Shown here piece by piece: positions 56,601-59,600 of a stretch of 64,000 bases of DNA. Position numbers: made by a program. Every line of letters starts with the position of its first letter. Within the stretch, counting starts at the first letter, position 1. Origin of the DNA: Escherichia coli (GTDB lineage Bacteria > Pseudomonadota > Gammaproteobacteria > Enterobacterales > Enterobacteriaceae); the NCBI RefSeq assembly GCF_044324875.1, contig NZ_CP172185.1; one strand, given 5' to 3'.

Positions 56601-59600
56601 GATGACCATAAAACAGCACAATGACGCCCAGCCCAAGCCAGAACGCAGGTGTGGAGATTCCGGTAATGGCCATTATTCGCACCAGATGATCCAGCCAGCG
56701 ATTTCGCCAGACTGCAGAGAGTATGCCCAGCGGGATGCCAATCAGGAGTGCCAGCAGCAGGGCACAAAAAGCCAGTTCCAGCGTCGCCGGGAAAAATATA
56801 CGCAACTCTTCCAGCACCGGACGCCCGGTACGAATGGATGTTCCCAGGTCACCCTGAAACAGGTCGCTGACGTAGCGGTAAAACTGTACGTACAGTGGCT
56901 GGTCCAGTCCCAGTTGCTGGCGAATATTATCCACGATAGCATCGCTGGCGCGGTCACCCGCCAGTAACCGCGCCGGATCGCCGGGGATCAGGTGCGAGAT
57001 AATAAACGTTATCACACAGACGCCCGCCACCACGAGCACCAGCCCCCAGCAGCGTTGGCGTAAAATACTCCAGAAGGTCACGTTATTTACTCATGGTATT
57101 GATATTGAAGACCTGTTCCAGCATGGGATTGAACACAAAACCTTTCACCTCTTTGTTCATCGCCAGTTGGTAGTTTTTCTGGAACAGGTACACATAAGCA
57201 GCGTCATCAATGACGATTTTCTGTGCCTGCTGGTAGTCCCGAGTACGCTGCGTCTGGTCGGTGGTCGCTAGCGCATTGCGCAGTAACTTATCGACCTCAC
57301 TGTTTTCATAGAACGAGCGGTTACCCGGCAGACCTTTTTTGTCTGACTCAAACCAGTAATTCATAAACATATACGGGTCGGCAAAATCCGGACTCCAGTT
57401 GCCAATCGCAATGTCATAATCACCTTTTCCCACTCTGTCGCGCATGGTGGCGTTCGCCAGCTTTTCCAGCTTCACGTTGATGCCCAGCTTGTTGAGACTG
57501 GATTGTGTCGCCAGAGCAATAGGCTCCCAGTTCGGATCATTATCAGAATAGAGAAACGTCAGGCTGGTGGGTTTGCTCGTCACTTTATCCCATTCGGCTT
57601 TGGCTTTCGTTTCGTCATGGTTGTATTGCATTGCCGTCGCATCGTATCCCCACATGCCTTCCGGAATCGGGCCGCGCATTTGTTTTCCGTTACCACTCAG
57701 AATGCCGTTAACCATACCCTGATAATCGGTAGACCAGGAAATGGCCCGACGCAGATCCGCCTGATTAAGTGGCGCTTTGCTGTTATTCAGATACAGATAG
57801 GTGACGCGCAGTGACGGATACTCTGCCACATTGACTTTGTTTTCCTGCTTCAGTGCGTTGAGTTGATCCACCGGCAGCGCATCGGCAATGTCAATGTCGC
57901 CACGGGAGAGCTGCAGGCGACGGGAAGCACTTTCACCGATAATTTTTACCGATACCCGTTTGAAATTCGGTTTATTGCCGGGGTAATGCGGATTTGGCAC
58001 CAGAACTAATTGCTGACCTTTTTGCCAGCTTTTCAGCATAAACGGTCCGGAGCCAGCGGTATTTTGCGCGAGGAAACCACGTGCATCATCCGCCGCATGC
58101 TCCTTTAAGACCGCCGGATTGATAATGGATGCACCGTCATTCGCCAGCGTGTAGAGGAACGGTGCGAATGGCTGGCTAAGGGTAAACCTCACTGTATGTT
58201 CGTCGGGAGCATCAATCTTTAAATCTTTGGGAAATGCTTCTGCTGGCCCCTGGCCGATTTTTAGTAACCGCTCAAAAGAGAGTTTTACTGCTTCGGCAGT
58301 GACAGGAGTGCCATCGGCAAATTTAGCATTATCCTTCAGGGTGAATGTCCACTCTTTTTGATCGTCAGACGCTTTCCAGCTACTCGCCAGATCGCCTTCA
58401 ACGTCGGTTGAGCCTTTATCACCGTCCGTTTTGTACTGAACCAGTCGCTGATAAGACGGGTAGGTCACTGTCCAGTCGTTATTATCAATTGTCACCGCTG
58501 GGTCGAGGGTTTGTGGGTCGGCAGCTTTACCGATCACCAGCATATCTTTCGGTACGGCGGCGTGCGCAACCGGCATTGTTGTGGCAAGGACGATCGCGAG
58601 CAATGTAGGACGAAACAAAATCGATCTCTTCATGACAGTTTCCTGATTAACTGGCGTGCTGTGTGCCAGGGGATATAAAACAGGTGAATTGATCAGCGAG
58701 TAGTGGGTAACTCGCTGCCTGGGGTAATTCGAAGTGCCACCATTCGCTCGGGATACCGACAAAGCCACCGCCAGTCATAATCGCATTCAGCAACAGCCGA
58801 TTGCGCTGAGCGGCGGGCGGGACGGAAGGGTGATAAGCATGGGAACGTTCGTGCATTTCATCGAACTCTGCACCCATATCCAGGATGTTCCCGTGCTCAT
58901 CACGAAGCGTCAGGTCGATCGCCGTGCCACGGCTGTGATTAGAACCGACCGTCACATCAACAACATATTGCGGGTCTGGGCAGGTTTGCCACAACATCGC
59001 CTGTGCTTGTTGTGGGCGATACGCATCGTAAATCACCAGTTGTAAGCCTGACAGCTGGGCGATACTGATACTTTTCGCCAGCGCAGTAATCGCATCCTTG
59101 TGTAACAGACAACGCGCTTGCTGATAAATAGCTTTGCCTGTGATGTTATCAGCGCAGGCGTATTTCAGTTCGATCTCCAGATCAGGGAAGATCACGGCTA
59201 AATCAACCAGTTCGGTGGTATCCGACATAAACGGTTCCTGTATAAGACAAAAATTGCTGCGCTTTCCGCTTATGCAGATCTCATGCCATGCCGGGATAAG
59301 CGCCAGAATGCTGGCTTAAAGTTATATTTTTTAACTTTTGATCAACATTTGTGCAGCGTAGTGCAGTTTTGGTGCAAGAGGGGAAGTTAAGGAAGGAATC
59401 TCCCGGAATCGTAGCTGAAATCACAGTATTTAAGTGACAGTGTCACTTTAAAGGAAAACCCGCGAGTGCGGGCGAGAGGAATTTGTCAGATTTTCAGCGG
59501 TAACACACTGCTCATCCAGCCTGGAATTTCTTCGGCGGGCAGGGGGCGGGAAAAGAAATATCCCTGAATAACGCGACAGTGGATCTTGCGTAGCATCTCA

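What the first reader, a model, noticed from the sequence alone, without database searches (positions are those of the whole stretch)
59433..59472. Tandem palindromes immediately downstream of the dosC-dosP fusion gene
AGTGACA-G-TGTCACT (59433..59447) lies next to the GC hairpin and U-run that I call the terminator. The first palindrome could be part of the terminator structure or a separate binding site in the ddpX upstream region.
Basis: seen in the sequence. Interest (0 to 1): 0.2.

Follow-up and report, generated by a model that had tools for sequence, protein, structure and literature searches.

The report
A matS site beside dosP's terminator
[quoted passage not shown] It is neither part of the terminator nor a ddpX gene switch.

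Summary
Both palindromes are real. The window is E. coli, terminus region, genes on the minus strand (ddpX, dosP, dosC).

- **Terminator.** The GC hairpin (59458-59473) plus T-run (59450-59458) starts 12 nt after the dosP stop codon. It is a plausible intrinsic terminator, but I found no 3'-end data for it.
- **matS site.** The other palindrome has the core GTGACAGTGTCAC (59434-59446). This is an exact match to GTGACRNYGTCAC, the published MatP-binding consensus of the Ter macrodomain.
- **In vitro binding.** The identical 13-mer has been used as a matS site in MatP binding assays.
- **Position.** In K-12 the site lies at 1,563,282, 27.5 kb from dif. I counted 9 exact consensus sites in 210 kb around dif and none in 200 kb of control DNA; about 0.04 are expected by chance in each.
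- **Second copy.** Another exact matS lies inside narW (28571-28583).
- **Conservation.** Across ten Escherichia sequences the core is 12/13 invariant, and the one change (T to C) still fits the consensus. The bases between core and hairpin vary freely.
- **Independence from ddpX.** The site persists in B2 strains that lack the ddp operon.

Verdict: a known element in an incidental position. I did not retrieve the published site list. Low interest.

The parts
59434..59446 (.). matS core GTGACAGTGTCAC, a MatP binding site. It corresponds to K-12 MG1655 1,563,282-1,563,294.
   Evidence: Exact match to GTGACRNYGTCAC (consensus from PMC6907758). The identical 13-mer served as a matS site in MatP EMSA and tethered-particle assays (PMC7394560). 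The core is 12/13 invariant in 10 Escherichia sequences, and the single change still fits the consensus.
59432..59448 (.). The two bases on each side of the core carry no sign of selection.
   Evidence: Base 59447 is T here, G in most strains and C in strain SMBL. Only 34 of 4647 records are at least 99% identical over the surrounding 67 nt.
59458..59473 (-). GC-rich hairpin GCCCGC-ACUC-GCGGGU of the putative intrinsic terminator of dosCP.
   Evidence: Found by the terminator scan. Folding energy is -10.3 kcal/mol. The stem core and loop (59459-59472) are 13/14 invariant in the alignment.
59450..59458 (-). U-run UUUUCCUUU after the hairpin; 59458 is also the hairpin's closing base. Three A's (59447-59449) separate it from matS.
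   Evidence: The region is poorly conserved: 4/12 invariant over 59447-59458, a 7-nt insertion in strain F467, and the U-run is lost in Escherichia sp. E1V33 and SCPM-O-B-8794.
59486..59488 (-). Stop codon TGA of dosP, which here ends the 1015-aa DosC-DosP fusion ORF.
28571..28583 (.). Second matS site, GTGACACTGTCAC, inside the narW coding sequence. It corresponds to K-12 1,536,807.
59273..59288 (-). Sigma-54-type promoter TGGCATgagatCTGCA of ddpX. This is context only and is not part of matS.
   Evidence: Pattern match. ddpX is an experimentally confirmed RpoN/NtrC target (PMC8743547). The element is invariant in the four sequences that carry ddpX.
59350..59377 (-). TGCAC(C) repeats resembling NtrC sites upstream of the ddpX promoter. 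This is context only.
   Evidence: Sequence. Nearly invariant (one substitution) in the four sequences that carry ddpX. NtrC binding to the ddpX probe is reported in PMC8743547. Assigning NtrC to these exact bases is my inference.

Best explanation
The palindrome at 59434-59446 is a matS site, one of the roughly 23-28 copies of the 13-bp motif GTGACRNYGTCAC scattered over the replication-terminus (Ter) macrodomain of E. coli.

How it works, from the literature:
- MatP binds each matS on double-stranded DNA.
- The array of MatP-matS complexes keeps the condensin MukBEF out of Ter by unloading it.
- It also ties Ter to the division apparatus through ZapB and delays separation of the sister termini until division.

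This site acts as DNA, not as an RNA hairpin. Its position, 3 nt beyond the U-run of the dosP terminator and about 175 bp upstream of the ddpX sigma-54 promoter, is incidental.

The neighbouring GC hairpin plus U-run is most likely the intrinsic terminator of the dosCP operon and works independently of matS.

Shown here: the motif match, location, enrichment, conservation pattern and independence from ddpX. Taken from the literature: MatP binding to this 13-mer and the role of matS. Inferred: that MatP occupies this particular copy in vivo.
For: 1. The site is an exact match to the published consensus GTGACRNYGTCAC (PMC6907758 Table 2, Kd 8 nM).
2. The identical 13-mer GTGACAGTGTCAC is the 'lab collection matS site' used for MatP EMSA and tethered-particle assays (PMC7394560). 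The matS19 oligonucleotide AAAGTGACACTGTCACCTT has the same core and binds with Kd 15 nM (PMC6538776).
3. In K-12 MG1655 the site is at 1,563,282-1,563,294, between ddpX and dosP and 27.5 kb from dif at 1,590,750. Published work puts 28 ChIP-seq matS in a 1.03-Mb Ter domain, with density doubling near dif (PMC10945525).
4. My scan found 9 exact consensus sites in 210 kb of K-12 around dif. It found 0 in 200 kb of controls (oriC region, 0.30 Mb, 2.80 Mb). About 0.04 are expected by chance in each set.
5. The window itself has 2 sites against 0.012 expected (P = 7e-5).
6. Conservation is confined to the 13-bp core:
   - The core is 12/13 invariant across ten sequences, including B2 strains and two divergent Escherichia lineages.
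   - The one substitution is T to C at the degenerate Y position.
   - The adjacent 12 nt are 4/12 invariant and tolerate a 7-nt insertion.
7. The site is retained in B2 strains (ST131, E2348/69) that lack the ddp operon, where osmC is the neighbour instead.
8. Citrobacter species carry consensus matS sites at other positions around dosCP. This is the pattern expected for a density-selected array.
9. matP is present in 5425 of 5426 complete E. coli genomes. MatP structures are in the PDB: 4D8J, 3VEA/3VEB and 7NYW.
Against: - I could not retrieve a published table of matS coordinates, so I have no direct citation that this copy is one of the catalogued sites. I also have none that it gives a MatP ChIP peak.
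- At least one consensus site (matS5) showed no enrichment in one ChIP-seq study (PMC4738335), so a consensus match does not guarantee occupancy.
- RefSeq annotates nothing at this position.
- The site is absent at the orthologous spot in E. whittamii, in strain E69 and in the unnamed relative of loci L004/L005 (83% DosP identity). This copy is therefore not individually indispensable.
Confidence: 0.93

Rival explanations
1. The palindrome is an operator for a transcription factor that controls ddpX. It would sit in the upstream region of the sigma-54/NtrC promoter, about 175 bp upstream of the inferred start (promoter TGGCAT-N5-CTGCA at 59273-59288).
For: It lies in the ddpX-dosP intergenic region, 212 bp upstream of the ddpX start codon. 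Enhancer-dependent promoters can use distant sites. ddpX is strongly regulated, with a 104-fold NtrC/RpoN-dependent induction (PMC8743547).
Against: - The core is kept unchanged in B2 strains with no ddp operon.
- The same 13-mer occurs inside narW, and the motif occurs inside six other genes in Ter.
- It does not resemble the NtrC half-sites; those are the well conserved TGCAC(C) repeats at 59350-59377.
- The motif is absent from 200 kb of non-Ter DNA, which fits a chromosome-domain mark and not a regulon.
Confidence: 0.03
2. The palindrome is part of the dosCP terminator. It would act as a second RNA hairpin that backs up termination or protects the 3' end.
For: On the minus strand it folds into a 7-bp hairpin of -7.0 kcal/mol directly after the first terminator. 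Tandem terminators do exist.
Against: - It lies downstream of the U-run, where transcripts should already have ended.
- It is followed by UUAAAUACUG, not a U-run, and is not called by the terminator scan.
- The real terminator's U-run degenerates in related lineages while the palindrome stays fixed. That is the reverse of what a terminator accessory would show.
- Identical palindromes sit inside open reading frames such as narW.
- Its variation follows the matS degeneracy.
Confidence: 0.02
3. The palindrome is a chance feature with no function.
For: Short palindromes are common in intergenic DNA. The outer bases of the 15-17 bp version are indeed a lineage-specific accident.
Against: 0.012 exact motif copies are expected in the window and 2 are present. 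About 0.04 are expected in 210 kb around dif and 9 are present. The core is invariant amid variable flanks.
Confidence: 0.02

Closest known systems
matS sites of the E. coli Ter macrodomain (MatP/matS system; Mercier et al. 2008, as cited in PMC3330122, PMC7394560, PMC10945525)
   Same: - Exact 13-bp consensus, and a core identical to matS19 and to the laboratory matS site.
- Location 27.5 kb from dif, within an array of about 4 sites per 100 kb in the stretch I sampled.
- No matS in the 200 kb of non-Ter DNA I sampled.
- Conservation restricted to the core.
- The cognate matP gene is present in E. coli.
   Different: Nothing found. The only special point is its position between a terminator and a sigma-54 promoter region; 7 of the 9 K-12 sites I sampled are inside genes. 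I could not confirm its number in the published lists.
Rho-independent (intrinsic) terminators
   Same: The neighbouring element has a 6-bp GC-rich stem, a 4-nt loop and UUUUCCUUU, and starts 12 nt after the dosP stop codon.
   Different: The palindrome in question is not part of it. The U-run is interrupted by CC and is not conserved outside E. coli proper. No mapped 3' end was found.
NtrC enhancer sites of sigma-54 promoters (for example glnAp2 and ddpX)
   Same: An inverted repeat upstream of a sigma-54 promoter.
   Different: The half-site sequence is different (GTGAC, not TGCACC). The repeat lies outside the conserved ddp regulatory block and persists without ddp.

Membership tests
matS (MatP binding site) | 13-bp palindromic sequence matching GTGACRNYGTCAC | tested here: met
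   GTGACAGTGTCAC at 59434-59446 with 0 mismatches. The consensus is taken from PMC6907758.
matS (MatP binding site) | Lies in the Ter macrodomain, the region around dif | tested here: met
   The K-12 position is 1,563,282 and dif was found at 1,590,750. The literature gives Ter as 0.8-1.03 Mb and as containing dif.
matS (MatP binding site) | Member of a motif array enriched in Ter and absent elsewhere | tested here: met
   9 exact sites in 210 kb around dif against 0 in 200 kb of controls, with about 0.04 expected in each. Only about 9% of the chromosome was sampled.
matS (MatP binding site) | Selective constraint limited to the recognition core, with changes allowed at the degenerate positions | tested here: met
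   The core is 12/13 invariant and the only change is Y: T to C. Flanks are 4/12 and 15/22 invariant.
matS (MatP binding site) | Cognate MatP protein encoded by the organism | tested here: met
   matP was found in 5425 of 5426 complete E. coli genomes. matP is not inside the window, so this is shown for the species and not for this isolate.
matS (MatP binding site) | MatP binds the sequence | not testable with these tools
   From the literature only. The identical 13-mer binds MatP in EMSA and tethered-particle assays, and matS19 with the same core has Kd 15 nM. No ChIP data for this locus could be retrieved.
Intrinsic terminator (the GC hairpin) | GC-rich stem-loop followed directly by a U-run, downstream of a stop codon | tested here: met
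   stem of 6 pairs (5 G-C), -10.3 kcal/mol, then UUUUCCUUU, starting 12 nt after TGA.
Intrinsic terminator (the GC hairpin) | Transcript 3' ends map to the U-run | not tested
   There is no dosP or ddpX entry in the supplement of eLife 62438. The supplement of NAR gky274 is not held.
Intrinsic terminator (the palindrome as a part of it) | The hairpin precedes a U-run and co-varies as a structure | tested here: not met
   No U-run follows it and the terminator scan does not call it. It stays fixed while the true U-run decays.
ddpX operator / NtrC enhancer site | Linked to ddpX and similar to the regulator's consensus | tested here: not met
   It is present in B2 genomes without ddp and has no TGCACC-type half-site.

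The most novel reading that the evidence does not exclude
MatP bound at this matS, only 3 nt past the dosP U-run and about 175 bp upstream of the ddpX sigma-54 promoter, might also act locally. It could block read-through from dosCP into ddpX, or it could interfere with NtrC-promoter looping. Expression of these stationary-phase and nitrogen-stress genes would then be coupled to Ter organisation or the cell cycle. The retention of matS exactly at the junction where B2 strains lack the ddp operon could then reflect more than array density.
Probability: 0.05. Interest if true: 0.35.

Novelty: already known. Interest (0 to 1): 0.12.

Why it matters
Mainly as a correction. An unexplained palindrome in an intergenic region turns out to be a chromosome-architecture mark, not a transcriptional element.

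This shows that scans of the E. coli terminus region should mask GTGACRNYGTCAC before proposing new operators or RNA structures. The element adds nothing new to MatP/matS biology.

The comparative data give a small illustration of how single matS copies are kept or lost. This copy survived where B2 strains lack the ddp operon, is absent at the E. whittamii rearrangement, and sits at different positions in Citrobacter.

Tried and rejected
- **Rfam:** a scan of 59000-59800 at E <= 10 gave only meaningless eukaryotic hits.
- **Joint RNA structure of the two hairpins:** the 86-nt fold (z = -3.2) adds an outer helix between the dosP 3' codons and 59415-59424. B2 and other lineages break a pair there without compensation, so I did not pursue it.
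- **Regulator motifs from memory (CRP, SlmA, CusR, PhoB, LysR-type T-N11-A):** none fits the half-site spacing. This is my own reasoning, not a tool result.
- **Papers naming this site:** text searches for matS/MatP together with dosP, ddpX, narW, yddU, yddV, ddpA or narZ found nothing relevant. The Mercier 2008 paper is not held. The supplements of PMC4738335 and PMC10945525 hold no site table as text.
- **3'-end datasets:** no dosP or ddpX entry in one, and the other is not held.
- **Exact-pattern scan of species genomes with the 21-nt terminator sequence:** 0 hits. In the two related lineages recovered that keep this terminator and matS (L018, L020), the 21-mer differs by a few bases. I replaced it with a protein-guided search.
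- **Search for the 15-mer in the window:** this led to the narW copy and, through the Citrobacter loci, to recognising the matS consensus.

Full report
**What is in the sequence**

The window is E. coli. The 321 bases around the finding are 100% identical to strain Ecol_316, and closely related copies occur in 5391 of 5426 complete E. coli genomes. The annotated genes run on the minus strand in the order digH, dosC, dosP, ddpX, ddpABCD.

Read on the minus strand, the region is laid out as follows:
- the dosP stop codon TGA (59488-59486)
- 12 nt
- the hairpin GCCCGC-ACUC-GCGGGU (59473-59458; 5 G-C pairs plus one G-U; -10.3 kcal/mol)
- UUUUCCUUU (its first U, 59458, is also the closing base of the hairpin)
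- AAA
- the palindrome

On the + strand the palindrome reads AAGTGACA-G-TGTCACTT (59432-59448).

The title's 'dosC-dosP fusion' is also correct. The window lacks 759 bp present in its closest relatives, with 4 bp of microhomology at 61821-61824. The result is one 1015-aa ORF made of DosC 1-237 plus DosP 22-799.

**How the identity emerged**

Searching the window for the 15-mer gave a second exact copy in the opposite orientation at 28570-28584, inside narW.

I then fetched dosP loci from Citrobacter to test conservation. They showed no palindrome downstream of dosP. They did show the same kind of palindrome elsewhere in the loci: GTGACAGTGTCAC and GTGACAGCGTCAC upstream of dosC, and GTGACGTTGTCAC between an hdeA-like gene and a chemoreceptor gene.

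All of these fit GTGAC-R-N-Y-GTCAC. That is the published recognition motif of MatP, called matS (PMC6907758 Table 2, Kd 8 nM). It is described as a 13-bp target repeated 23 times in the 800-kb Ter macrodomain (PMC3330122). A later ChIP-seq study counts 28 sites in 1.03 Mb, with density doubling near dif (PMC10945525).

**Tests of the matS reading**

1. *Motif.* 59434-59446 and 28571-28583 are the only matches in the window, even when one mismatch is allowed, and both are exact. A first-order Markov model expects 0.012 exact copies (P = 7e-5 for two).
2. *Binding.* The exact 13-mer GTGACAGTGTCAC is the matS site used for MatP EMSA and tethered-particle experiments (PMC7394560). Its 41-mer oligonucleotide has different flanks, so it comes from another locus, the one called matS19. 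The matS19 oligonucleotide has the same core and binds with Kd 15 nM.
3. *Location.* In MG1655 the site is at 1,563,282-1,563,294. ddpX starts at 1,563,076 and dosP ends at 1,563,334. I found dif at 1,590,750, which is 27.5 kb away.
4. *Array.* In 210 kb of K-12 around dif (1.458-1.668 Mb) there are 9 exact consensus sites. In 200 kb of control DNA there are none. The controls were 3.90-4.00 Mb including oriC, 0.30-0.35 Mb and 2.80-2.85 Mb. About 0.04 sites are expected by chance in each set.
5. *Gene context.* Seven of the nine sites lie inside genes (paaH, ydcK, ydcO, ydcV, narW, lsrR, ydfI). Two are intergenic (ddpX/dosP and marA/marB). The motif therefore has no special tie to terminators or promoters.
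6. *The protein.* matP is annotated in K-12 and found in 5425 of 5426 complete E. coli genomes. MatP structures, alone and within MukBEF complexes, are in the PDB (4D8J, 3VEA/3VEB, 7NYW).

**Conservation**

I aligned ten sequences: the window, K-12, two B2 strains, four other E. coli, Escherichia sp. E1V33, and the divergent 'E. coli' SCPM-O-B-8794.

| Segment | Invariant positions |
|---|---|
| matS core (59434-59446) | 12 of 13 |
| Between core and hairpin, including the U-run (59447-59458) | 4 of 12 |
| Far-side flank (59412-59433) | 15 of 22 |
| Hairpin stem core and loop (59459-59472) | 13 of 14 |

- The one change in the core, in strain F467, is T to C at the degenerate Y position.
- The stretch between core and hairpin carries a 7-nt insertion in F467.
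- Base 59447, which extends the palindrome beyond 13 bp, is T in the window, G in most strains and C in strain SMBL.
- Only 34 of 4647 records are at least 99% identical to the window over the surrounding 67 nt.
- The U-run is lost in E1V33 (GCGGGCUUCACAUAAAC) and weakened in SCPM.

This pattern is the signature of a protein-recognised DNA word. It is not the signature of a terminator accessory.

**Independence from ddpX**

B2 strains (ST131, E2348/69) have no ddp operon; osmC converges on dosP instead. Homology with the window resumes at about 59407-59410, and the matS core and hairpin are intact.

Several other relatives have no matS at this spot:
- E. whittamii loses homology immediately after the hairpin.
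- Strain E69 and the unnamed relative of loci L004/L005 (83% DosP identity) have a different dosP downstream region with no matS.
- E. albertii has a disrupted dosP.

Citrobacter amalonaticus, C. sedlakii and C. rodentium carry consensus sites at other places around dosCP. Individual copies turn over while the array persists.

The genuine ddpX control region lies at 59273-59377. It comprises the sigma-54 promoter TGGCATgagatCTGCA, an AT-rich spacer and TGCAC(C) repeats. It is almost invariant in the sequences that carry ddpX. ddpX is a confirmed RpoN/NtrC target (PMC8743547).

**Mechanism**

From the literature:
- MatP binds matS and organises Ter (PMC3330122).
- MatP displaces or unloads MukBEF from Ter (PMC4738335; PMC8669397; PMC10945525).
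- Through ZapB it helps keep sister termini paired until division (PMC7394560).

This copy is expected to contribute as one unit of that array, in the dif-proximal zone of highest density. Occupancy of this particular copy is inferred, not shown. One consensus site, matS5, gave no ChIP signal in one study.

The GC hairpin plus U-run is best read as the dosCP intrinsic terminator, working independently. I found no 3'-end mapping to confirm it.

**What remains open**

I could not obtain the published coordinate tables, so the statement that this is one of the catalogued matS sites rests on the consensus match and the location. A local effect of bound MatP on read-through into ddpX, or on NtrC looping, is not excluded, but nothing supports it.

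**Verdict**

The element is of an already known kind and of low interest.

Noticed in passing
window 59486-62533 (junction 61821-61824): A DosC-DosP fusion ORF of 1015 aa, made of DosC 1-237 (globin sensor, no GGDEF domain) joined to DosP 22-799. It arises from a 759-bp in-frame deletion with 4-bp microhomology relative to the closest complete genomes (Ecol_316, 042). An identical 1015-aa protein (P0005) is on record from 31 contigs. A different 923-aa fusion form is much commoner (P0102 on 351 contigs, P0115 on 131). Deletions fusing the two oxygen sensors therefore seem to recur in E. coli.
   Followed up: partly
window 28571-28583: A second exact matS site (GTGACACTGTCAC) inside the narW coding sequence. 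Its 15-mer is the exact reverse complement of the one in the finding. The flanking base differs in K-12 (TGTGAC against AGTGAC).
   Followed up: yes
window ~59407-59410; L002 3960-4030; L021 6190-6300: The ddp operon is absent in B2 strains, where osmC abuts dosP and the junction lies about 25 nt beyond matS. It is also absent in E. whittamii, but with a different junction directly after the terminator hairpin, so matS is missing there. I did not determine whether ddp was gained or lost.
   Followed up: partly
L003 3140-3150 (strain EC22): This strain has a deletion that removes dosP, the terminator, matS and the C-terminal part of dosC. The ddpX upstream region is joined directly to a truncated dosC.
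   Followed up: no
window 20152-21164 and 36060-37390: Two IS2 copies (one partial), 98-99.9% identical to K-12 IS2D. Window 10900-25000 is largely not collinear with K-12, where the rhsE region lies.
   Followed up: partly
L026 (strain F467), aligned to window 59447-59458: A 7-nt tandem duplication (AAATGAA) between matS and the terminator hairpin lengthens the A/T tract. The same strain has the only core variant seen (GTGACAGCGTCAC).
   Followed up: no
L024 (Terrisporobacter petrolearius assembly, 519-bp contig): A 519-bp contig in a Clostridia genome assembly encodes a DosP fragment 97% identical to that of E. coli. This is almost certainly E. coli contamination of that assembly.
   Followed up: no
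window 59415-59424 with 59489-59498: The 86-nt minus-strand fold predicts an outer helix (CUGAAAAUC / GAUUUCAG) enclosing both hairpins, with z = -3.2. B2 and other lineages change one partner without compensation, so it is probably not meaningful.
   Followed up: partly
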